NCBI GenBank assembly: GCA_964016885.1
Contig: OZ024750.1
Span: 32,302,001 to 32,366,000, forward strand
Source: Eledone cirrhosa
Taxonomy: Eukaryota
Length of the DNA stretch: 64,000 bases
Direction of reading: 5' to 3'
Every line of letters begins with the position of its first letter. The stretch's first letter is position 1. Under the pieces are notes generated by a model, which ran no database searches, was not told the DNA's origin, and saw nothing but the letters and a program-made list of their open reading frames with translations. Shown one piece after another: positions 941 to 59,996 of this stretch. The position numbers were made by a program, and so were the translations under genes.

Positions 941-2751
941 GGGGATCTTCACGGCGTAATATTAAATGCTTACTTTTAAATCTGCGCTTCTTTTTTACAT
1001 TCTTTGCAATTTAGTTATGTTGTCTGGGATTTTTATTTAGAAACACAGAGTCTGTATAATCTTTCTTTGAAGTTGGTACTGTCATTGTAATTAGCTTTTT
1101 CTCGTGCCACTAGTAATTTATAAATACAAAAAGAACTGATGAAAATTGTGGTTTGTGAAATAACAAACAGTTAAAAACATCGTTAGAGATGAACGTTGCA
1201 TTATTTGTTCAATGGGGTTTAGATGGCATTCGTCGTCTAATCAGATGAAATGTTCGACTTGTTTCTCTTCACCACCAATCTCAACTATCTCGCTTCTGGG
1301 CCTTTTTAATGGTAAAAAAAAGAAGAAAGTAGAAAAGGAGGAAGTGGAAGAAGGACAGCAAAGGGAAAAAGAAAAAAAGAAAGAAAACGGAAACGATGAT
1401 AAAAAGGAGAAAATGTTGATGAAGAAAATAAAAAGAAGACGAAGGAGAACTGAATGACGTAATTAAGTTTTAAATATTCTTATGATTTGTAAAGTCTAGA
1501 CATTCAAATATCCTGGAACATCGAATATTTTCACAAATTCAGAAGCAATAATCTTCATTTGAAAATCTTAACATGTAGATAGTGTGTATTACGTTCATCC
1601 AATCATGAACTACATTCTGAAATTGGAAACTGGACACATTTAAGCTAGTTTATGGAATCAAATATCTGAACATTTTTTCTTTGCTATAATGGAATATTTC
1701 ATGATATATTGGATTTCATAATATTTATTTCCCAGATAAATCTCCTGAGTTATTCTAAATTTCTCTTACAAACTATTACCAACATATAAATTGAATTATG
1801 CATCTTTTAATGAAATAACGAACATAACACTATCATATCATAGCGATCAATCTCTATATTCCATATATACTAAGTGCCCGCTCTGCACTGCTTCCTCACT
1901 ATCGCCCCTCTCTTACAGATCTCTTCCTTGTTACCTCTGACGCATGAAGATTATTATGCTTGTAATATAATATAAGCATGGCATAACATATCTCCCTTCT
2001 CCTCTCAACTAAAGAAAATTGTTGCCTCCCCTATCACTCCTCCCCTTTTCCCTCCCTACCTATATGCATGACGGATAACCAGACAGGTAACAGATTTTCT
2101 TTCATGATATATATAGCATGTTATAATCGACAAACTATTGCTACTGAATGCACCAGAAAAGAAACGTATTTATTTCGATGTTTTCGTCTTAGGAAGAAGA
2201 AAGACCCCTTGGCTCACAAATCCCACATTACTGGGCTGACTAAGATTTAATGAAATCAAATGTTTTAGTTTGATACATTGTAGCTAAATGTTGATGGAGA
2301 AATACAGACAGGAAATTCCTTACGAAATAATGAATTTTTCAAAACGTTCCTGATAGTTACTGCTCTTGTTCGGTGAGATGAGCAAATGTGGAAAGATTAA
2401 GAGACGTAAAAAGTTGGATACAACATATATGCTGAGAGCAGGACAAGCTGAAATCAAAGTAATTGATCTGATAAAATAAAACGTGCTGATCGAACAGATG
2501 GTTAACACACTGAATCACCTACGGAAATTATTTTCCAAAAGGGAATAACCATATTTATGTATGGATCACGAATTGACATCCATGATAAGTTGCATTGTTT
2601 CGTACAGCCGAATCATTCACTATTTATGCTCCAGTAGATTGGAAAATAGCTTCTTACTATGTTACTTTATATAGACAACTGATCCAGTTGAAGTATATTT
2701 TAGTGATAATTTAGAAATTCGCATGGATTTTGTGAACATTTAACATTATGT

Positions 2752-2930
2752 GGATTTGCACTATCGGTAGAGGGTCGGACGCCATGCTATTTAACAAAGA
2801 GTTACGGCCCTTTATGGTATGATTTCAAATCCCTCTGAAGTTAACTTTGCCTTTCATCCTTACGGAGTCGATAAAATAAAGTACCAGTAATACAATGGGA
2901 TAATTGGTGGCTGTGTGCCAGAAGTAGAAA
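2752..2930 (+). mobile_element. tRNA-derived SINE, family 1
   Basis: Head ..ATCGGTAGAGGGTCGGACGCCATG, B-box-like TTCAAATCC, conserved body CTTTGCCTTTCATCCTTACGG.GTCGATAAAATAAAGTACCAG. Confidence 0.8.
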
Positions 2931-2936
2931 TAAAAG

Positions 2937-3125
2937 GGCGGCGGATTGGCAGTATCGGTAGGGGGTCGGACGCCATCCTTTGCAGCAAAGAGTTACGGCC
3001 CTTTAAGGTATGAGTTCAAATCCCGCCGAAGTTAACTTTGCCTTTCATCCTTACGGGGTCGATAAAATAAAGTACCAGTAATACACTGGAATAATTTCTG
3101 GCCGTGTGCCAGAAGTAGAAACAAT
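2937..3125 (+). mobile_element. tRNA-derived SINE, family 1 (tandem with previous copy)
   Basis: A-box-like TGGCAGTATCGG, B-box GAGTTCAAATCC, same conserved body. Confidence 0.85.
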
Positions 3126-3361: not shown

Positions 3362-3486
3362 TATATATAAATATATATATATATATAAATATATATATAT
3401 TTATATATATATATAAATATATATATAAATATATATATATATAAATATATAATAAATAACAAAGAACGCCTATAGCATATGCATAT

Positions 3487-3544
3487 CTTTACTTGCTAAC
3501 ATTGTTTCATCCGCACTATAAGTGGGACTCATCAGAGCATAAAG
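3487..3544 (-). ncRNA. Type I hammerhead ribozyme (PLE)
   Basis: Reverse complement of the HHR at 7692-7749. Confidence 0.75.
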
Positions 3545-4178
3545 GTTAATTACATACCATACAAGCAATAACAAATCCAAGACATTGAAGAATGAAAAAT
3601 AATAGAAGATAAAGGATATTAAGGAAGTAAAAGTAAAAATAAGAATAAAAATAAAAATAAAAATAAAAATAAAAATAAAAATAAAAATAAAAATAAAAAT
3701 AAAAATAAAAATAAAAATAGAAATAAAAATAAAAATAAAAATAAAAATAAAATAATAAAATAAACAATGAAAAATAAGGGGTGCTATCAGTCACAGTTGG
3801 GCGGGGTGCTGTCAACATATAGTTACATACAAGCATACACATGGATAAGAGAACAGACAAGAGTAGATAAGATAGATAGGATTAGGTAAGAGTAGGTAAA
3901 AAATAGGTGAAAAACAGACTTATAATATATATAAGAAAATATAAAGAAATATATAACAAACTTACATATAAAATATAAAGTATAAAATATACAGATAATA
4001 GTGATACAGGGTAAGGAATGAAATAAAATAATATAAAATTAAAATTAAAATTATATAAAATAGAACATAATATAATATAATCATAAAATAAGATAAAATA
4101 AGGTAAACTAAAATAAAATAAAATAGACTAAAGTAAAATAATATAATATAAGATATAATTAAATGTAATTAAATAAAA

Positions 4179-4229
<51 letters not shown>

Positions 4230-5844
4230 AATTAAATAAATAAATAAAATTAAAATTAAAATTAAATTTAAATAAATGAATAAATAAATAAATAAGTAAA
4301 TAAATAAATAAATAAATAAATAAATGAAATTAAATAAGTAAATAAATAAAATAAAATTAATAAAATTAGATAAAATGAAATGAAATAAAATAAAATAAAA
4401 TAAAATGAAATAAAGTAAATTGAGATAAGATATATATTTTTTTTAGAATATATCTCTTGAATATATCAGGGGCCCACGAAGGCACTAAGTGTCACAGTCA
4501 TCTGTGTCACTTGACCATTTTTTAAAAATATATTTCTTGAAGATATCAGGGGCCCACGAAGGCTCTAAGTGTCACAGTCACCAGTATTACTTGACCATTG
4601 CAAGGCAATGGAGGCGTCCCAGGTTGGGCAGTCTCAAAAGTTCACTCGAAAGTCACGGGTGTGCATTCACACAGTTGAGCGGTGGGGTAATCACAAACCG
4701 GTTCACACCCGGGCAGGAGTCCAATGGTCAAACAGAGGTGCATCGAAGGAAGGTAGGAGAATTCACGTGCATTAGCAAGCGAGGTGCAGGCGGGTTAGCC
4801 AAAGCAAGCAGACACAGTTGGAGCGCATACAAAAGATATATAAAAAGACAAAAGATATATAAAAAATAGCTTCAAGAGCTATGAAGTCACCGCATTGGGA
4901 CATCACAAGATCGTACACATCAATATGTTCAGCACGTGTATGCACATATACACACCACATGCATATGCAGAGACGGTATACATATATATATATATATTTT
5001 TTTATATACAGACATATACAACCACCTACACCCAAACACATATAAATGTATACACAGACACACACGCACACACACACAGCGTAGGACACCCGGGTCAAAG
5101 CTAATATTAAACACCGAAATACCACATTAGGCAAGACCCACCACCACGGATAATACATTCAAAATAAATACATACGATGAGATGTAGTAAAATAAAGTTG
5201 AATTCCTACGGAGATAATCATGTCCGCACGTGCCATTGCCCGATTCAAGTGTACACAGACCGTTAGTAACTACGGAGGGCTATCGGGGCCAAAACGTTAC
5301 TTTCGGGATCATAACAACGACCGTCAATATATGGAAGGCCGATCGTGCTAGAAAGACTACAACCCCGGGCAAGAGCTCCCAGAAGTCAGCCTGTAGATCT
5401 TAAACCACAGAATATGAGGGCAACACGTACATGCGCCACGTATCTACTGCTTACGGCCGGATGGCACAGGTCCGCCCACAGTTACAGGCTAAATTTCTAT
5501 TAGTGCAGCCTATATCACAGTACACGCTCCACATAGATACATTACATCACAACTCATGCGCATACAGAGGTACAGATCCACAAGATATGCGTCAGGATAG
5601 ACCCACCAATGCACCAATGGTGGGTAGGCGAGCGTGGATGGGTTACATCCGCTGTGCCAAACAGGGGTGCTTATTAACATACACACCCACTCACCTGTAC
5701 ACCCCAGTATCCAGATCAATATCCTCCCGCAGACATACGTATACACTCACCGACTCATATACATAGAAGACCAACAATAGGAGACAGTTACACACAATCA
5801 GAGACAGTTACACAAGATAGCCCAACTGGAGAAATAAGGAAGTG

Positions 5845-6213
5845 CTAGCTAACAGGTTTAAAGTAGAAGAAAGAGCTTAATATTCGGTGGGGGCAAGAGG
5901 AAAATATTTCAGACTTTCTATTTAGTAGAGGGCATTTAGCAAATATAATAGAGTGGGATTCGGCAAGGCATAGGTTACATACTCTATTATGAGGAGTATA
6001 TGGATGGGATTTAGCAACCTGCCGCCAAGTAAGTGTGTAATGTGTTCGTGCATTTTTTAAATTATGGACGTACGCTGCCAAGGAGGTGGAGTTCCTCAGT
6101 TTATTATGTCTAAAAGTGCATTGGTGAGAGTTAAACCTGGTCTTAAAGGGGGTGGAGGTTGATCCTATATAGGTTTTAGTGGACGCCGTAGTTACCACAT
6201 CACACGCATAAAC
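5845..6213 (-). pseudogene. 5'-truncated C-terminal GIY-YIG endonuclease domain of a PLE ORF
   Basis: VYACDV...TYIGST...FKTRFNSH...STSLAAYVHNLK...W...PY...CNLCLAE...LLNRKSEIFSSCPHR*. GIY-YIG motif with conserved R/H/E/N and CxxC. The part of listed ORF 5845..6450 upstream of 6213 is an artefactual fusion. Confidence 0.85.
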
Positions 6214-7020
6214 TGAGGAACTCCGCCTCCTTGGCAGCGTACGTCCATAATTTAAAAAATTACGCTGTGTGTGTGTGCGTGTGTGTCTGTGTATACATTT
6301 ATATGTGTATGGGTGTAGGTGGTTGTATATGTCTGTATATAAAAAAAATATATATATATATATGTATACCGTCTCTGCATATGCATGTGGTGTGTATATG
6401 TGCATACACGTGCTGAACATATTGATGTGTACAATCTTGTGATGTCCCAATGCGGTGACTTCATGGCTCTTGAAGCTATTTTTTATATATCTTTTGTCTT
6501 TTTATATATCTTTTGTATGCGCTCCAACTGTGTCTGCTTGCTTTGGCTAACCCGCCTGCACCTCGCTTGCTAATGCACGTGAATTCTCCTACCTTCCTTC
6601 GATGCACCTCTGTTTGACCATTGGACTCCTGCCCGGGTGTGAACCGGTTTGTGATTACCCCACCGCTCAACTGTGTGAATGCACACCCGTGACTTTCGAG
6701 TGAACTTTTGAGACTGCCCAACCTGGGACGCCTCCATTGCCTTGCAATGGTCAAGTAATACTGGTGACTGTGACACTTAGAGCCTTCGTGGGCCCCTGAT
6801 ATCTTCAAGAAATATATTTTTAAAAAATGGTCAAGTGACACAGATAACTGTGACACTTAGTGCCTTCGTGGGCCCCTGATATATTCAAGAGATATATTCT
6901 AAAAAAATATATATCTTATCTCAATTTACTTTATTTCATTTTATTTTATTTTATTTTATTTCATTTCATTTTATCTAATTTTATTAATTTAATTTTATTT
7001 ATTTACTTATTTAATTTCAT

Positions 7021-7060
<40 letters not shown>

Positions 7061-7691
7061 ATTTAATTTTAATTTTAATTTTATTTATTTATTTAATTTT
7101 ATTTATTTATTTATTTATTTTATTTAATTACATTTAATTATATCTTATATTATATTATTTTACTTTAGTCTATTTTATTTTATTTTAGTTTACCTTATTT
7201 TATCTTATTTTATGATTATATTATATTATGTTCTATTTTATATAATTTTAATTTTATATTATTTTATTTCATTCCTTACCCTGTATCACTATTATCTGTA
7301 TATTTTATACTTTATATTTTATATGTAAGTTTGTTATATATTTCTTTATATTTTCTTATATATATTATAAGTCTGTTTTTCACCTATTTTTTACCTACTC
7401 TTACCTAATCCTATCTATCTTATCTACTCTTGTCTGTTCTCTTATCCATGTGTATGCTTGTATGTAACTATATGTTGACAGCACCCCGCCCAACTGTGAC
7501 TGGTAGCACCCCTTATTTTTCATTGTTTATTTTATTATTTTATTTTTATTTTTATTTTTATTTTTATTTTTATTTTTATTTTTATTTTTATTCTTATTTT
7601 TACTTTTACTTCCTTAATATCCTTTATCTTCTATTATTTTTCATTCTTCAATGTCTTGGATTTGTTATTGCTTGTATGGTATGTAATTAAC

Positions 7692-7749
7692 CTTTATGCT
7701 CTGATGAGTCCCACTTATAGTGCGGATGAAACAATGTTAGCAAGTAAAG
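7692..7749 (+). ncRNA. Type I hammerhead ribozyme (PLE)
   Basis: CTTTA-TGCT|CTGATGA|GTCC-CACT-tat-AGTG-c-GGAT|GAA-AC-aat-GT-T|AGCA-ag-TAAAG. Full core, helix I with bulge, minimal helix III, GUU site. Confidence 0.75.
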
Positions 7750-7892
7750 ATATGCATATGCTATAGGCGTTCTTTGTTATTTATTATATCACGGCTCTCT
7801 CCTCAGACATCGAGCTAACCTTATACTGCCTGCTGGATAAGTGGAGTGTTATACACCCCTGATCCTCTCCCTAGTATACTATATAAATATAT

Positions 7893-8042
<150 letters not shown>

Positions 8043-8187
8043 ATATATATTTATATAGTATACTAGGGAGAGGATCAGGGGTGTATAACACTCCACTTAT
8101 CCAGCAGGCAGTATAAGGTTAGCTCGATGTCTGAGGAGAGAGCCGTGATATAATAAATAACAAAGAACGCCTATAGCATATGCATAT

Positions 8188-8245
8188 CTTTACTTGCTAA
8201 CATTGTTTCATCCGCACTATAAGTGGGACTCATCAGAGCATAAAG
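8188..8245 (-). ncRNA. Type I hammerhead ribozyme (PLE)
   Basis: Third copy, identical to the other two. Confidence 0.75.
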
Positions 8246-8303
8246 GTTAATTACATACCATATTTATATATATATATATTTAAATATATATATATATATA
8301 AAT

Positions 8304-9077: not shown

Positions 9078-9507
9078 ATATTGTTATACTTGGAGAGGGT
9101 CATATTTGTGTAATAATATTGCCAGAATTAATAACAGAACACACTCACTGTTTGGTTGCTTTTTGCTTCTGTGTCTCTTATATCGGTTAATTTAATTTAT
9201 TCGGTCCTCAATGTTGCCATTGACTGACCAACGGTCAAAAATACAATGCAACGGGAGGAAACATAATAGCACCACTGACGATGTTGCAGATCTGCAACGA
9301 AAGAACTTTGATAGACTATATATATGTGTTTGTGTCTATATTGTTTCTGTATTTTTGACCGTTGGTCAGTCAATGACAACATTGAGGACCGAATAAATTA
9401 AATTAACCGCTATAAAAGACACAGAAGCGAAAACCAACCAAACAGTGAGTGTGTTCTGTTATTAATTCTGGCAATATTATTACACACATATGACCCTCCC
9501 CAAGTAT

Positions 9508-9515
<8 letters not shown>
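9078..9515. repeat. Inverted repeat (arms 9078-9245 and 9348-9515) with HHR-like core in the spacer
   Basis: Arms are near reverse complements. Spacer has CTGACGA-t-GTTGCAG-at-CTGCAAC-GAAA (9275-9302). Right end abuts (TA)n. Confidence 0.75.
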
Positions 9516-35934: not shown

Positions 35935-35991
35935 CAGGAAGGTATGCGTTGCTGACGATAGCTAATAAGCTTGAAAATAATACAGCGTTCC
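35935..35991 (+). ncRNA. Type I HHR (family B), helix III mutated
   Basis: GCGTTG|CTGACGA|t-AGCT-aata-AGCT-t|GAAA-ataa-T-A|CAGCGT. Confidence 0.55.
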
Positions 35992-39704: not shown

Positions 39705-40700
39705 ACCGGTACTAATTCTGCAACTAATATTTTACTCGGTAACCTTGGTTGAGCGATCCTTCGATCAAAAGTACTGATTCTGCAACCGCTACTGTTGGAG
39801 TTAAGCTCATGTTAACCTTACTGCAGCGGTCTGCTGATCAAAGGTACTAATTCTGCAACTAATATGTTAGTTGGTAAACTTGGTTGAGCGATCCTTCGAT
39901 CAAAAGTACTGATTCTGCAACCGCTACTGTTGGAGTTAAGCTCATGTTAACCTTACTGCAGCGGTCTGCTGATCAAAGGTACTAAATCTGCAATCGCTAC
40001 TTTTGATGTTAACACTGGTTGAGCGGTCCTCTCATCAAAGGTACTTATTCTACAATCACTACTGTTGGTTTTAAACCCAGGTTAATCTTAGTGGACCGAT
40101 GTTCTGATCAAAGGTACTAATTCTGCAACCACTGCTGTTGGTTTTAGACCCTGGTTAACCTTATTGGAGCGATGCTCTGAACAAAAGTACTAAGTCTGCA
40201 ACCCCTAATGTTGGTGTTAAACCCAGCTTCACCCTAATGTGAGCGGATCTCTGAGCAAAGACACTAAATCTATAATCGCTACAGTTGGTGTTGAGCTCCG
40301 GTTCACCCTAGCTGAGCGGATCTCTGATCAAGGACACGGAACCTGGAATCGCTACTGATGGTATTACGCCCAGGTTGACAATAGTGGGGTGGTCAGCTAA
40401 TGAAATGTACTAATTCTACAGTCAGTGCAACGTCTCTTGTAACCCTAGTGGAGCTGACTTCTCATCAAATGTACTGATTCTACAATAACTGTTGTTGTTA
40501 TTAACTGTGTTTGAGCTGCCTTCCAATCCTAGTTACCAATTCTGCAATTGGTGCTGTTACAGTTCAGCCCAGGTTAACTCTGGCTGAGCAGAATTCTAAT
40601 CACAGGTTCTAATTTCGCAAACCCTGATCGAGCAGATCTCTCATCACAGGGATTAGATTTGCAACCGTTGCTACCGTTAAGCCAGAGTTAGCCCTGATGG
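39705..40700. repeat. Degenerate minisatellite of 62- and 73-bp monomers
   Basis: GTACT.ATTCTGCAA anchors at 39709, 39771, 39844, 39906, 39979, 40041, 40114, 40187 and onward. Confidence 0.8.
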
Positions 40701-50596: not shown

Positions 50597-52228
50597 AATA
50601 ATAATGGTAATAATAATTATGAAGACCAAACTTCATATATATATATATATATATATGAATTGGGAGGGTTTCATATAGCTTCATCACATTCAGCGATGGT
50701 TATTGTTTAATGATTGGCTGGTATTTGCAATATGGCGTGGGATTGTGAAGTATTTGTCCGTTTGAAGCTATGGTTACGTTATGAAGAAGGTGGAGCGGGG
50801 AACAGTACAGTTATAGAATCACTTTATATTTTTCTAAATTTAGTTATTTCTGCATTTATTTCTTAAAATTGATTTCTTAATAATTGGAATATATATTTGT
50901 GGCTCTTATGCGAGCATATAGAAATTGATTTATTGAATAACACTACGAATTCTAGCAGTGAAAACTAATTTTGAGTTTGGTAATTTCTAAAGTTTGTTAT
51001 TAATTATTTCATACTAATTGGAGGTTTTATATATGAAATAGTGATTGTATATATAATTGACTTTATTGAAATATTGCCAGACTCTTATTATTGCTAATTG
51101 ATAATAAGAAGTCATTCAGTTATATTCCTTCTTTCCCGATCGCTATGTTAGGTGAATTATTTTTTTAATTTTTAGTAATCTATTTCTACCTAATTTTGGT
51201 TTCGTGGCAATTAAGAAATTACGGATATCCTCAATTTCGTGTGCTTGGATATGTTTGGAAAAGGTCACGAATGTTTACGATTATTTATTTGACACTTGCC
51301 CTTTAATATGCAAATTTATAAACGATATTTGCATGACCCTTTGATCCAGAAAGTTCTAGAGAAAAGCGTGAATATTATAAAGTCCTTGACGTTAATGATT
51401 TTGTAGCAAACGTGACAATCTGTATACTAAATGATTATATTTAAAGTTGCTGGGGATGGGGGGTCTAAGAAATCTCTATGAGTAATATATATGTTGTGAA
51501 GTAACGTGGCCTAGTGGTAAGGCTGTTGGACGTACAATCTTAATGCCATGGATTCCATTCCTGGAGCACCTTGTGTGTTGGGGTCTTAACCTAAACACTT
51601 CATTTCTCGTTGCTTCAGTATAATCAGGTGACCCGCCACGGACACCAGAATAAGCATCGGCCTGATGAGCCTCCGGTATATATATATGTACTCTCATAGA
51701 CAGACACACACACACACATATACATATATACATGTGTGTGTGAGAAAGGGAGACGCATTCAATCGGGGGTAACCACAGTAAGTAAGGTACTCAATACATT
51801 AGTATAGTATATATAACAAATGTAATATAGATATAGAAATGGCTTCTACACGACTAAAACTGTTTCATTCGAAGAAAATCATCCAGATATTATACACCGC
51901 CCCCGCCCCAACTCTCAAGAGCGTGAACCTAATATACCTTTATTTGTCTGCCTCTCTGTTTTGTTCCCGTCCAAAGTTGCACTATATATATAATTATATA
52001 TATATACAATTAAGTTAAAAATGTACATCCACATATGTATACTGAAATACTAGTATGCATATGAATACACACACGTATACATATGTAGATGTACCGAGTT
52101 TTTCACTGGTCACTTTACTGTGAGTGTCCAGCTATTCTGTATGTAAACACACAGACAAACCGGTTTTTAGAGTCATACTGGTTTTTGAGGAAACACCTTT
52201 CCTCTATTCTCCAGAAAGCCAGACAAGG

Positions 52229-52273
52229 AATATTGAACTAGTTTCGTTGTTGTTACAACTCATCAGCAATATT
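52229..52273 (-). ncRNA. Type I HHR (family A)
   Basis: Reverse complement of 54163-54207. Confidence 0.85.
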
Positions 52274-52694
52274 TACCTATCTTCCGGCCTTTCTAGAGAA
52301 TCGTAAAAGCACATATCGTTATATGCTTTTTCTATGAAAATTAGTAGTGGGCAGACTAATTTGCATAGAGCGTGAGTACGTACCGGTTCAACGGAGACGA
52401 TAAAAACAAATAACGAAACGAAATTAAATTTCGTTTCGTTTGTAACTCACTTTTGTATGACTGACGCTTAAACAATTAAGTTAAAAATGTACATCCACAT
52501 ATGTATACTGAAATACTAGTATGCATATGAATACACACACGTATACATATGTAGATGTACCGAGTTTTTCACTGGTCACTTTACTGTGAGTGTCCAGCTA
52601 TTCTGTATGTAAACACACAGGCAAACCGGTTTTTAGAGTCATACTGGTTTTTGAGGAAACACCTTTCCTCTATTCTCCAGAAAGCCAGACAAGG

Positions 52695-52739
52695 AATATT
52701 GAACTAGTTTCGTTGTTGTTACAACTCATCAGCAATATT
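52695..52739 (-). ncRNA. Type I HHR (family A)
   Basis: Identical copy, +466 bp. Confidence 0.85.
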
Positions 52740-53160
52740 TACCTATCTTCCGGCCTTTCTAGAGAATCGTAAAAGCACATATCGTTATATGCTTTTTCTA
52801 TGAAAATTAGTAGTGGGCAGACTAATTTGCATAGAGCGTGAGTACGTACCGGTTCAACGGAGACGATAAAAACAAATAACGAAACGAAATTAAATTTCGT
52901 TTCGTTTGTAACTCACTTTTGTATGACTGACGCTTAAGCAATTAAGTTAAAAATGTACATCCACATATGTATACTGAAATACTAGTATGCATATGAATAC
53001 ACACACGTATACATATGTAGATGTACCGAGTTTTTCACTGGTCACTTTACTGTGAGTGTCCAGCTATTCTGTATGTAAACACACAGACAAACCGGTTTTT
53101 AGAGTCATACTGGTTTTTGAGGAAACACCTTTCCTCTATTCTCCAGAAAGCCAGACAAGG

Positions 53161-53205
53161 AATATTGAACTAGTTTCGTTGTTGTTACAACTCATCAGCA
53201 ATATT
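53161..53205 (-). ncRNA. Type I HHR (family A)
   Basis: Identical copy. Confidence 0.85.
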
Positions 53206-53626
53206 TACCTATCTTCCGGCCTTTCTAGAGAATCGTAAAAGCACATATCGTTATATGCTTTTTCTATGAAAATTAGTAGTGGGCAGACTAATTTGCATAG
53301 AGCGTGAGTACGTACCGGTTCAACGGAGACGATAAAAACAAATAACGAAACGAAATTAAATTTCGTTTCGTTTGTAACTCACTTTTGTATGACTGACGCT
53401 TAAACAATTAAGTTAAAAATGTACATCCACATATGTATACTGAAATACTAGTATGCATATGAATACACACACGTATACATATGTAGATGTACCGAGTTTT
53501 TCACTGGTCACTTTACTGTGAGTGTCCAGCTATTCTGTATGTAAACACACAGACAAACCGGTTTTTAGAGTCATACTGGTTTTTGAGGAAACACCTTTCC
53601 TCTATACTCCAGAAAGCCAGACAAGG

Positions 53627-53671
53627 AATATTGAACTAGTTTCGTTGTTGTTACAACTCATCAGCAATATT
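53627..53671 (-). ncRNA. Type I HHR (family A)
   Basis: Identical copy. Confidence 0.85.
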
Positions 53672-54069
53672 TACCTATCTTCCGGCCTTTCTAGAGAATC
53701 GTAAAAGCACATATCGTTATATGCTTTTTCTATGAACGGAGACGATAAAAACATTCTGGAGAATAGAGGAAAGGTGTTTCCTCAAAAACCAGTATGACTC
53801 TAAAAACCGGTTTGTCTGTGTGTTTACATACAGAATAGCTGGACACTCACAGTAAAGTGACCAGTGAAAAACTCGGTACATCTACATATGTATACGTGTG
53901 TGTATTCATATGCATACTAGTATTTCAGTATACATATGTGGATGTACATTTTTAACTTAATTGTTTAAGCGTCAGTCATACAAAAGTGAGTTACAAACGA
54001 AACGAAATTTAATTTCGTTTCGTTATTTGTTTTTATCGTCTCCGTTGAACCGGTACGTACTCACGCTCT

Positions 54070-54117
54070 ATGCAAATTAGTCTGCCCACTACTAATTTTC
54101 ATAGAAAAAGCATATAA
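54070..54117 (+). promoter_or_regulatory. Octamer + PSE-like + TATA-like block, family A (one per complete unit)
   Basis: ATGCAAATTAGTCTGCCCACTACTAATTTTCATAGAAAAAGCATATAA. Function is inferred. Confidence 0.5.
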
Positions 54118-54162
54118 CGATATGTGCTTTTACGATTCTCTAGAAAGGCCGGAAGATAGGTA

Positions 54163-54207
54163 AATATTGCTGATGAGTTGTAACAACAACGAAACTAGTT
54201 CAATATT
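54163..54207 (+). ncRNA. Type I HHR (family A)
   Basis: AATATTG|CTGATGA|GTTGT-aaca-ACAAC|GAA-AC-ta-GT-T|CAATATT. Perfect core, 7-bp helix I, 5-bp helix II, palindromic ACTAGT helix III, GUU site. Confidence 0.88.
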
Positions 54208-54628
54208 CCTTGTCTGGCTTTCTGGAGAATAGAGGAAAGGTGTTTCCTCAAAAACCAGTATGACTCTAAAAACCGGTTTGTCTGTGTGTTTACATACAGA
54301 ATAGCTGGACACTCACAGTAAAGTGACCAGTGAAAAACTCGGTACATCTACATATGTATACGTGTGTGTATTCATATGCATACTAGTATTTCAGTATACA
54401 TATGTGGATGTACATTTTTAACTTAATTGTTTAAGCGTCAGTCATACAAAAGTGAGTTACAAACGAAACGAAATTTAATTTCGTTTCGTTATTTGTTTTT
54501 ATCGTCTCCGTTGAACCGGTACGTACTCACGCTCTATGCAAATTAGTCTGCCCACTACTAATTTTCATAGAAAAAGCATATAACGATATGTGCTTTTACG
54601 ATTCTCTAGAAAGGCCGGAAGATAGGTA

Positions 54629-54673
54629 AATATTGCTGATGAGTTGTAACAACAACGAAACTAGTTCAATATT
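54629..54673 (+). ncRNA. Type I HHR (family A)
   Basis: Identical copy. Confidence 0.88.
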
Positions 54674-54961
54674 CCTTGTCTGGCTTTCTGGAGAATAGAG
54701 GAAAGGTGTTTCCTCAAAAACCAGTATGACTCTAAAAACCGGTTTGTCTGTGTGTTTACATACAGAATAGCTGGACACTCACAGTAAAGTGACCAGTGAA
54801 AAACTCGGTACATCTACATATGTATACGTGTGTGTATTCATATGCATACTAGTATTTCAGTATACATATGTGGATGTACATTTTTAACTTAATTGTTTAA
54901 GCGTCAGTCATACAAAAGTGAGTTACAAACGAAACGAAATTTAATTTCGTTTCGTTATTTG

Positions 54962-54992
<31 letters not shown>

Positions 54993-55115
54993 GAATATAG
55001 ACATAGAATATTCGAAAATATTCTGTATGTTTATAATAAACATTTTGAAGACCTAATCGCTATAGAATAGAATACGTCACGTATTACAATTAGATTCTCG
55101 ATAAAAGCAAGGGAA

Positions 55116-55158
55116 GTAATCTACGCGTTTCATTCTTGTTAGAAATCATCAGGACTAC
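55116..55158 (-). ncRNA. Type I HHR (family C)
   Basis: Reverse complement of 55516-55558. Confidence 0.8.
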
Positions 55159-55515
55159 ATATCCAGTGCTTTTATCGAGAATGACACAGCTAGAGACTTA
55201 TAGAATACTTAGCTGTGTACAGGAACTGGTTTGAAAGAGCGGTTGCCGGTCCGGCAGAAATTAGAAATTGGAATAAATGCTCTGAAATAGCGATATATAT
55301 GTGAATATAGACATAGAATATTCGAAAATATTCTGTATGTTTATAATAAACATTTTGAAGACCTAATCGCTATAGAATAGAATACGTCACGTATTACAAT
55401 TAGATTCTCGATAAAAGCAAGGGAAGTAATCTCGCTCTTTCAAACCAGTTCCTGTACACAGCTAAGTATTCTATAAGTCTCTAGCTGTGTCATTCTCGAT
55501 AAAAGCACTGGATAT

Positions 55516-55558
55516 GTAGTCCTGATGATTTCTAACAAGAATGAAACGCGTAGATTAC
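55516..55558 (+). ncRNA. Type I HHR (family C)
   Basis: GTAGTC|CTGATGA|t-TTCT-aaca-AGAA-t|GAA-AC-gc-GT-A|GATTAC, closed by a 16-bp stem ATTCTCGATAAAAGCA/TGCTTTTATCGAGAAT. Confidence 0.8.
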
Positions 55559-55826
55559 TTCCCTTGCTTTTATCGAGAATCTAATTGTAATACGTGACGT
55601 ATTCTATTCTATAGCGATTAGGTCTTCAAAATGTTTATTATAAACATACAGAATATTTTCGAATATTCTATGTCTATATTCACATATATATCGCTATTTC
55701 AGAGCATTTATTCCAATTTCTAATTTCTGCCGGACCGGCAACCGCTCTTTCAAACCAGTTCCTGTACACAGCTAAGTATTCTATAAGTCTCTAGCTGTGT
55801 CATTCTCGATAAAAAGCACTGGATAT

Positions 55827-55869
55827 GTAGTCCTGATGATTTCTAACAAGAATGAAACGCGTAGATTAC
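55827..55869 (+). ncRNA. Type I HHR (family C)
   Basis: Identical copy, +311 bp. Confidence 0.8.
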
Positions 55870-56023
55870 TTCCCTTGCTTTTATCGAGAATCTAATTGTA
55901 ATACGTGACGTATTCTATTCTATAGCGATTAGGTCTTCAAAATGTTTATTATAAACATACAGAATATTTTCGAATATTCTATGTCTATATTCACATATAT
56001 ATCGCTATTTCAGAGCATTTATC

Positions 56024-56079
<56 letters not shown>

Positions 56080-58470: not shown

Positions 58471-58822
58471 ATAGTATATTTCTTATTTGATACTTCGTGT
58501 CCGGCTGAAATGTATGTTGTTGCCTTTAAGCGATCTCTTATATGCATACATACATACATGGTGGTGGCTGCCAACTCGTTTTCGAGTACGGCCACTACTT
58601 TATATCCATGTAGGAGAACCCCTACCGATGCGCTGAACGAGTGTGACTTTTTAGTCCAGCCAGCGACTTGAAAACTCTGGTACAAACACTACACTTGTGA
58701 CAATTATTGACACATAGTGCCAGGCCCATGGTACCATGTGATGACAAGTGCAGAGAGATCTCCAGATATAAAGCAATGCCTGTGCCGTGAAGCTTTTATA
58801 GTGAGCAAAGGCACTGCACAAA

Positions 58823-59996
58823 GTCAGTCCCCTCTTGGTTCTGACATCTAGTAGGATGTAGAACACCATCTTCATAGAGCGAAGCTGGGCATTCTTCTGT
58901 TTTGGTTGAGATAGTCAGTCCCCTCTTGGTTCTGACATCTAGTAGGATGTAGAACACCATCTTCATAGAGCGAAGCTGGGCATTCTTCTGTTTTGGTTGA
59001 GATAGTCAGTCCCCTCTTGGTTCTGACATCTAGTAGGATGTAGAACACCATCTTCATAGAACGAAGTTGGGCATTCTTCTGTTTTGGTTGAGATAGTCAG
59101 TCCCCTCTTGGTTCTGACATCTAGTAGGATGTAGAACACCATCTTCATAGAACGAAGCTGGGCATTCTTCTGTTTTGGTTGAGATAGTCAGTCCCCCTCT
59201 TGGTTCTGACATCTAGTAGGATGTAGAACACGATCTTCATAGAACGAAGCTGGGCATTCTTCTGTTTTGGTTGAGATAGTCACTCCCCCTCTTGGTTCTG
59301 ACATCTAGTAGGATGTAGAACACCATCTTCATAGAACGAAGCTGGGCATTCTTCTGTTTTGGTTGAGATAGTCACTCCCCCTCTTGGTTCTGACATCTAG
59401 TAGGATGTAGAACACCATCTTCATAGAACGAAGTTGGGCATTCTTCTGTTTTGGTTGAGATAGTCAGTCCCCTCTTGGTTCTGACATCTAGTAGGATGTA
59501 GAACACCATCTTCATAGAACGAAGCTGGGCATTCTTCTGTTTTGGTTGAGATAGTCAGTCCCCCTCTTGGTTCTGACATCTAGTAGGATGTAGAATACCA
59601 TCTTCATAGAACGAAGCTGGGCATTCTTCTGTTTTGGTTGAGATAGTCAGTCCCCCTCTTGGTTCTGACATCTAGTAGGATGTAGAATACCATGTTCATA
59701 GAACGAAGCTGGGTATTCTTCTGCTTTGGTTGAGATAGTCAGTCCCCCTCTTGGTTCTGACATCTAGTAGGATGTAGAACACCATGTTCATAGAACGAAG
59801 CTGGGCATTCTTCTGTTTTGGTGGAGATAGTCAGTCTCCCTCTTGGTTCTGATATCTAGTAGGATGAAGAACACCGTCTCCATAGAACGAAGCTGGGCAT
59901 TCTTCTGTTTTGGTTGAGATAGTCAGTCCCCTCTTTGTTCTGACATCTAGTAGGATGTAGAACACCGTCATCATAGAACGAAGCTGGGCATTCTTC
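58823..59996. repeat. 91/92-bp minisatellite, 13 cores
   Basis: GTCA(G/C)TCCCC starts at 58823, 58914, 59005, 59096, 59187, 59279, 59371, 59463, 59554, 59646, 59738, 59830, 59922. Confidence 0.95.

What the first reader, a model, noticed from the sequence alone, without database searches (positions are those of the whole stretch)
55420..55445. Inversion breakpoint falls on the ribozyme cleavage site
Seen: the minus-sense arm begins at A|GATTAC (55432-55426), within 1 nt of the predicted GUA^GATTAC scission, and then joins the plus arm. Inference: the cDNA ran off the 5' end of a self-cleaved RNA, an in-genome footprint that the U-U variant ribozyme is active in vivo. A single event could be chance.
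Basis: partly seen in the sequence, partly recalled or inferred. Interest (0 to 1): 0.7.

Follow-up and report, generated by a model that had tools for sequence, protein, structure and literature searches.

The report
Retrozyme insertion junction at ribozyme cut
A young, back-to-back insertion of a hammerhead-ribozyme repeat has its internal joint one base from the predicted self-cut site; this likely marks copying that ran off a cut RNA, but chance or base-pairing between the two copies could also have placed it there, so it does not show that the ribozyme cuts in cells.

Summary
Observation confirmed. 54992-56028 is a young insertion of a 311-nt non-coding repeat carrying a type I hammerhead (U10.1·U11.1 variant), a non-LTR retrozyme. 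It lies in (TA)n as two arms joined 5'-to-5', the layout typical of Penelope-like elements. The minus arm starts at A17, 1 nt upstream of the predicted scissile bond.

Chance of a hit within ±1 nt is 0.02-0.03, post hoc. An equally unlikely (about 1%) 8-bp duplex between the two arm ends offers a cleavage-free explanation. Arms in the window cross a cut site 12 times and stop at one once. In 13 related U·U-hammerhead inverted insertions, 0 stop at the cut (one at about +7). Contigs from the same organism show no pile-up at the cut among the rows displayed, though one separate deletion joint ends exactly there.

U·U hammerheads are already known to cleave (axolotl HHR_Amex2). I put run-off from a cut RNA at about 45%. 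The more useful point is architectural: two retrozyme families and a Penelope-type element here share one insertion signature, which supports the proposed Penelope-driven mobilisation.

The parts
54966..54991 (.). (TA)n target run, left; also separates this insertion from family B
54992..55432 (-). Left (inverted) arm, 441 nt: unit position 311 (-1), one full unit, then to position 130; its 3' end lies at (TA)n
   Evidence: segmentation
55116..55160 (-). Intact type I hammerhead read through by the left arm (G1.1 at 55121)
55426..55432 (-). 5' end of the left arm: A17 plus the first six bases after the predicted cut; junction between 55432 and 55433, blunt
55433..55442 (+). Start of the right arm (unit position 191); matches the left arm's would-be read-through at 8 positions with two 1-nt offsets
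55433..56028 (+). Right arm, about 1.9 units (exact match to 56022, one substitution, then (TA)n); one extra A in a homopolymer of unit 2
55514..55558 (+). Type I hammerhead, U10.1·U11.1, predicted cut 55552/55553
55825..55869 (+). Second identical hammerhead, predicted cut 55863/55864
56029..56072 (.). (TA)n target run, right

Best explanation
This is the central 5'-to-5' joint of a young retrozyme insertion in (TA)n, likely made by a Penelope-like reverse transcriptase that copied the repeat RNA from both nicked strands, and the left copy most likely ended because it ran off a self-cleaved RNA end and gained one extra T before being joined to the right copy. Shown: the two divergent arms, the blunt joint at -1, the intact hammerhead core and the (TA)n flanks. 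Inferred: Penelope machinery, two independent priming events, cleavage, run-off and end joining. Stops at the cut are at most a minority route, because most passes cross the site on uncut, multimeric or circular template.
For: The end lies at -1, with a chance of 0.019 for ±1 and two ends. One extra base is what run-off gives in R2 (PMC3774820, passages). A different copy in run X1 has a 45-nt deletion whose upstream boundary is exactly 55122 (A17); its 5-nt insert re-copies the bases next to the cut. This is 1 of the 2 joints reported, a single contig at depth 5.4. Two more 5' ends lie just downstream of a cut: B at +20 and L038 at about +7. The arms are not copies of each other, by arm lengths and private variants in B and C, which fits a PLE protein that extends both strands (PMC11167929). 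The U·U class is conserved: stem I pairs in 19 of 74 distinct motif matches against 1.3 expected. A U·U hammerhead cleaves in vitro (PMC7229834).
Against: The kept base is A17 of the upstream product, so the run-off model needs an untemplated T. An 8-bp duplex (-7.5 kcal/mol, top 0.8-1.3% of end pairs) between the left read-through and the right end is then left as coincidence. 12 read-throughs against 1 stop in the window. 0 of 13 related inverted arms stop within ±1 nt (95% upper bound 21%). No loose-end row at 55120-55122 among the 9 shown; the best 5'-type rows are at unit positions 48 and 132. Hammerhead cleavage was dispensable for PLE insertion in vitro, and no RNA-seq ends were seen at its cut site (PMC11167929).
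Confidence: 0.45

Rival explanations
1. Chance: the same two-cDNA joint, but the left copy stopped at a random point on uncut or circular template that happens to be -1.
For: p is only 0.02-0.03, and 0.06 if all 8 ends of B and C are counted. The finding was selected for this coincidence. The family is highly repeated (1649 contigs laid in X1), so some copies must coincide. 0 of 13 external arms stop at the cut. B's joint is also blunt and not at its cut.
Against: A second, unselected joint ends exactly at A17. B (+20) and L038 (+7) both lie close downstream of a cut.
Confidence: 0.28
2. Homology-guided joining: the left copy read through the cut site into the ribozyme core, annealed to the right copy's 3' end (3 terminal G-C pairs plus 5 more), and one base was lost on resolution; no cleavage is needed.
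For: The duplex is -7.5 kcal/mol, in register, top 0.8-1.3% of random end pairs. With the right end fixed at 191, position 311 is the only non-self left end of 311 that anneals this well. The extra T is the read-through base. Overlaps and palindromes at PLE inverted junctions are described (PMC3846280, passages).
Against: Needs loss of the base at -2. Simple identity scores give a weaker p of 0.02-0.14 (10-12 nt). B's true joint shows no such pairing (about 84% of random pairs do as well).
Confidence: 0.22
3. Fold-back self-priming of the right cDNA on its own first hammerhead, or an assembly artefact, made the inverted arm.
For: The left arm (441 nt) fits inside 55552-55993, and the same duplex could form within one strand. 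Self-priming was proposed for PLE palindromes (PMC3846280). The joint was not seen in the displayed contig rows.
Against: The left arm has the 4-A run, while the stretch it would have copied has 5 A (weak, homopolymer). In B neither arm can be a clean copy of the other.
Confidence: 0.05

Closest known systems
Metazoan non-LTR retrozymes (Cervera & de la Peña 2020, PMC7229834; Li et al. 2026, bioRxiv 10.64898/2026.07.22.740005)
   Same: Tandem non-coding unit of about 300 nt, low GC, one type I hammerhead per unit, strongly folded monomer; the U·U base of helix II matches axolotl HHR_Amex2
   Different: The parts of these papers that I read describe tandem arrays and monomers, not head-to-head arms or where insertion ends fall; expression and cleavage of this family are untested
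EN+ Penelope-like element insertions (Craig et al. 2021, 10.1101/2021.04.23.441226; Arkhipova et al. 2013, PMC3846280; anole PAc element, PMC11167929)
   Same: Inverted 5'-truncated copy next to the 5' end, partial tandems, (TA)n or AT-rich target, internal 3' ends
   Different: No RT or GIY-YIG frame in the unit; both arms are multimers of a short ribozyme repeat
R2 5' junctions set by the HDV-like ribozyme (Eickbush et al. 2013, PMC3774820)
   Same: cDNA ending at a ribozyme cut with extra untemplated bases
   Different: In R2 this defines full-length 5' ends; here the cut is crossed far more often than it stops an arm, and the ribozyme is a hammerhead

Membership tests
Non-LTR retrozyme | Short tandem unit (about 170-400 nt) with a type I hammerhead in each unit | tested here: met
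   311-nt unit, three intact hammerheads
Non-LTR retrozyme | Non-coding, low GC | tested here: met
   No stop-to-stop frame of 120 aa or more in the insertion; GC 0.34 for 54001-56000
Non-LTR retrozyme | Strongly self-paired monomer | tested here: met
   -68.7 kcal/mol, z -3.7, 0 of 100 shuffles as stable
Non-LTR retrozyme | Expressed as linear and circular monomer RNA | not testable with these tools
   No RNA holder listed; contigs cannot show ends
Type I hammerhead | CUGANGA, GAAA and UH core with stems I-III | tested here: met
   stem I pairs in 19 of 74 related motif matches against 1.3 expected; compensatory changes in all 5 pairs (rows were chosen for pairing)
Type I hammerhead | G10.1-C11.1 pair at the base of helix II (canonical pair recalled) | tested here: not met
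   U·U instead; a described, weakly active variant (PMC7229834)
Type I hammerhead | Self-cleavage | not testable with these tools
   Needs in vitro transcription or RNA end mapping
PLE-type insertion | Inverted 5'-truncated arm joined head-to-head, microsatellite target | tested here: met
   same layout in B and in the GIY-YIG-bearing element A
PLE-type insertion | RT plus GIY-YIG open frame (autonomous PLE) | tested here: not met
   None in family C; it can only be non-autonomous
PLE-type insertion | Target-site duplication | tested here: inconclusive
   Both flanks are (TA)n
R2-like ribozyme-defined 5' end | 5' ends pile up at the ribozyme cut | tested here: inconclusive
   1 stop in 13 encounters in the window; 0 of 13 external arms; no row at the cut among 9 shown, 64 hidden; family C not tested genome-wide

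The most novel reading that the evidence does not exclude
Penelope reverse transcriptases mobilise animal retrozymes by priming both strands of (TA)n, and they use self-cleaved linear RNA ends as stop and template-jump points. Genome-wide junction maps would then give a fossil read-out of hammerhead cleavage in the germ line and show that tandem copies can be built by end-to-end jumps as well as by rolling on circles.
Probability: 0.3. Interest if true: 0.6.

Novelty: new member of a known kind. Interest (0 to 1): 0.33.

Why it matters
How animal retrozymes integrate, and whether PLE-associated hammerheads cut during transposition, are open questions in the papers I read (PMC7229834 discussion; PMC7761336 passages; PMC11167929). 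This genome has two young, highly repeated retrozyme families with near-identical arms. Counting insertion ends against the cut site in the full assembly would test both questions directly. The single junction settles neither.

Tried and rejected
1. No whole genome is held for this window, so 5' ends could not be counted genome-wide.
2. A family C motif scan of metagenome contigs gave 0 hits. The U·U motif gave 2 hits in viral contigs, neither with a stem I.
3. No RNA holder was listed. Hi-C run X22 laid 0 reads (about 1% of the run read, no test).
4. Classic single-RNA twin priming fits C's geometry (left 3' end at 130, right start at 191) but cannot explain element A, where the two arms overlap by far more than a kilobase. 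I prefer two primings.
5. One search scored B's joint with the wrong coordinate (310). Corrected (294|20): no pairing.
6. An attempt to measure microhomology at the external joints was inconclusive, for lack of family references.
7. The loose-end row at 55241 reads most simply as a 1-nt insertion variant, not as this junction.
8. A homologue search for element A's endonuclease fragment among longer proteins found none at E<=0.001.
9. The Rfam miRNA hits are microsatellite noise.
10. Paper searches found no report mapping retrozyme insertion ends to the hammerhead cut. The library lacks most subscription papers, and I did not see supplements (e.g. Figure S9 of PMC7229834, Figure S2 of PMC11167929).

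Full report
Observation. The window is AT-rich and microsatellite-rich, probably from an animal (inferred). Between two (TA)n runs lies a 311-nt repeat in two arms. The minus-sense arm runs 55432 to 54992 and the plus-sense arm 55433 to about 56028. Numbering the unit from G1.1, the left arm begins at position 311 (A17, one base upstream of the scissile bond) and ends at 130. The right arm begins at 191 and ends near 160. The joint is blunt, and the T at 55432 is not templated by the right arm.

The ribozyme. Each unit holds a CUGAUGA ... GAAA ... UA core, a 6-bp stem I, a 4-bp stem II closed by U10.1·U11.1, and a minimal stem III. Rfam HH9 aligns below its gathering score (19.2 bits, E 0.01) with the cut after GUA. 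The monomer folds at z -3.7. A scan for the U·U core in metagenome contigs gave 96 loci. Stem I of 4 bp or more occurred in 19 of 74 distinct matches (both collections), against 1.3 expected and at most 5 in 500 draws, so the variant is a conserved class. Axolotl HHR_Amex2 has the same U·U mismatch. It cleaves 22% as a monomer and better as a dimer, and its 350-nt RNA is found linear and circular in tissue (PMC7229834, sections 15 and 17 read). Activity of such a variant is therefore not new.

Architecture. Neighbour B (466-nt unit, 52006-54968, six HH9 hits at E 6e-6) and element A (3460-7874, hammerhead in its terminal repeats) have the same head-to-head layout in (TA)n. A carries a GIY-YIG-like fragment at 5848-6207 (Pfam E 0.0064, below cutoff; Atlas look-alikes 0.94-0.96). 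This layout is standard for Penelope-like elements (Craig et al., passages; PMC3846280, passages). A PLE protein nicks and extends both strands and starts internally on the RNA (PMC11167929, passages and half of the main text). Arm lengths and private variants argue that the arms were templated separately. B's left arm has three substitutions that the right arm lacks. C's left arm has a 4-A run where the stretch it would have copied has 5. PLE mobilisation of retrozymes has been proposed from co-occurrence and phylogeny (Li et al. 2026, parts 1-3 of 5 read). The shared insertion signature here fits it.

Is the position more than chance? Within the window, arms cross a cut site 12 times (C 3, B 6, A 3) and stop at one once. 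B's 5' ends are at +20 and 294; A's three are far from its cut.

A competing coincidence. Had the left copy read on into the ribozyme core, it would pair with the right copy's end over 8 bp (-7.5 kcal/mol). That is in the top 0.8-1.3% of random end pairs. With the right end fixed, position 311 is the only non-self partner that good. Identity-based scores are weaker (0.02-0.14 at 10-12 nt). This model needs one base lost. B's joint shows no pairing.

Other copies of the family. I laid four runs on one B unit plus one C unit (54503-55303). In X1, 1649 contigs were laid, 86 of them only partly. Nine loose-end rows were shown (six for X1) and 64 hidden. None shown is at 55120-55122. The strongest 5'-type rows are at unit positions 48 and 132 (3 contigs each). 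(TA)n-joined 3' ends fall at 167-172, close to this copy's right end. This argues against a dominant pile-up at the cut but cannot exclude a mild one, and the window's own joint was not displayed. One of two joints reported is a 45-nt deletion whose upstream side ends exactly at A17. Its 5 inserted letters repeat the bases beside the cut, as a jump onto a cut RNA 3' end would give. It is one contig (depth 5.4, short side 21 nt), and a shared 4-nt word could also explain it.

External test. From 42 AT-rich U·U-hammerhead loci I took 25, roughly one per duplicate set. Thirteen have an inverted arm that copies the region around the cut and shares a 3' end at +36 to +80. I dropped L049, whose arm lies elsewhere, and 11 loci with scores of 60 or less. 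The free arms reach -96, -72, -47, about +7, -115, -48, -256, -173, -93, -86, -80, -220 and -111. So 0 of 13 stop within ±1 nt (0.2 expected by chance; 95% upper bound 21%). These are other, older families from other organisms, and some palindromes may descend from one master, so the test bounds the habit of the class rather than that of family C.

Earlier AI notes (unchecked). One reports the same coincidence in another genome, with the cut only mildly favoured genome-wide. Two others rejected ribozyme-set junctions. They show that such coincidences get flagged repeatedly.

Verdict. The object is a new family of a known kind (non-LTR retrozyme) in a PLE-type insertion. My weights for the cause of the -1 joint are run-off from a cut RNA 0.45, chance 0.28, homology-guided joining 0.22, and fold-back or artefact 0.05. 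These weights are judgements, not computed values. R2 gives a precedent for the first (PMC3774820, passages). The finding that PLE insertion does not need cleavage in vitro weighs against its generality. One junction is a lead for a cheap genome-wide count, not evidence of in vivo activity.

Noticed in passing
window 52006-54968: Second retrozyme family (466-nt unit, canonical G-C hammerhead) in the same head-to-head layout, directly next to family C; 5' ends at +20 and 294, with a 54-nt internal jump 17 nt before the joint; three private substitutions in about 2.9 kb.
   Followed up: yes
window 3460-7874 and 8063-8262: Penelope-type element with a GIY-YIG-like fragment (5848-6207, minus), head-to-head arms joined near 6207/6208 and a hammerhead in each terminal repeat. 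A third 200-nt copy shares the 3' end and starts about 60 nt upstream of the cut.
   Followed up: partly
window 55122 and 55076 (run X1): A contig with a 45-nt deletion ending exactly at A17 plus a 5-nt insert that repeats the bases beside the cut; possible jump onto a cleaved RNA 3' end.
   Followed up: partly
window 55074-55076 (unit positions 46-48): Several contig ends and both joints cluster at a small hairpin (unit positions 38-52); possible pause site.
   Followed up: no
window 54695-54808 (run X4): One low-depth contig has 10 differences; the six listed are all T>C on the plus strand, and five of them are absent from X1. This resembles A-to-I editing of antisense or hairpin RNA, but the run type is unrecorded and it is a different sample.
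   Followed up: no
window 54503-55303: Near-identical B and C sequence is listed in runs of 17 coded organisms. X6 holds one low-depth collapsed unit of each family, and X22 raw reads show none. Carry-over of a high-copy repeat seems likelier than horizontal transfer.
   Followed up: partly
window 13989, 35952, 36382, 9275: Older hammerhead-like cores with CUGACGA; those at 35952 and 36382 (430 nt apart) and 13989 also have U at both 10.1 and 11.1; 9275 lies in a 430-nt palindrome (9078-9511).
   Followed up: no
L005, L010, L017, L038, L040, L041, L046, L050, L059, L065, L072, L074, L090: AT-rich metagenome contigs carry short head-to-head elements with U·U hammerheads and 3' ends 36-80 nt past the cut; likely host-animal PLE derivatives.
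   Followed up: partly
window 58822-59996, 39708-40504, and about 20 dispersed copies like 2740-3125: A 91-92-nt tandem array, a 135-nt tandem array, and a dispersed 190-nt repeat family.
   Followed up: no
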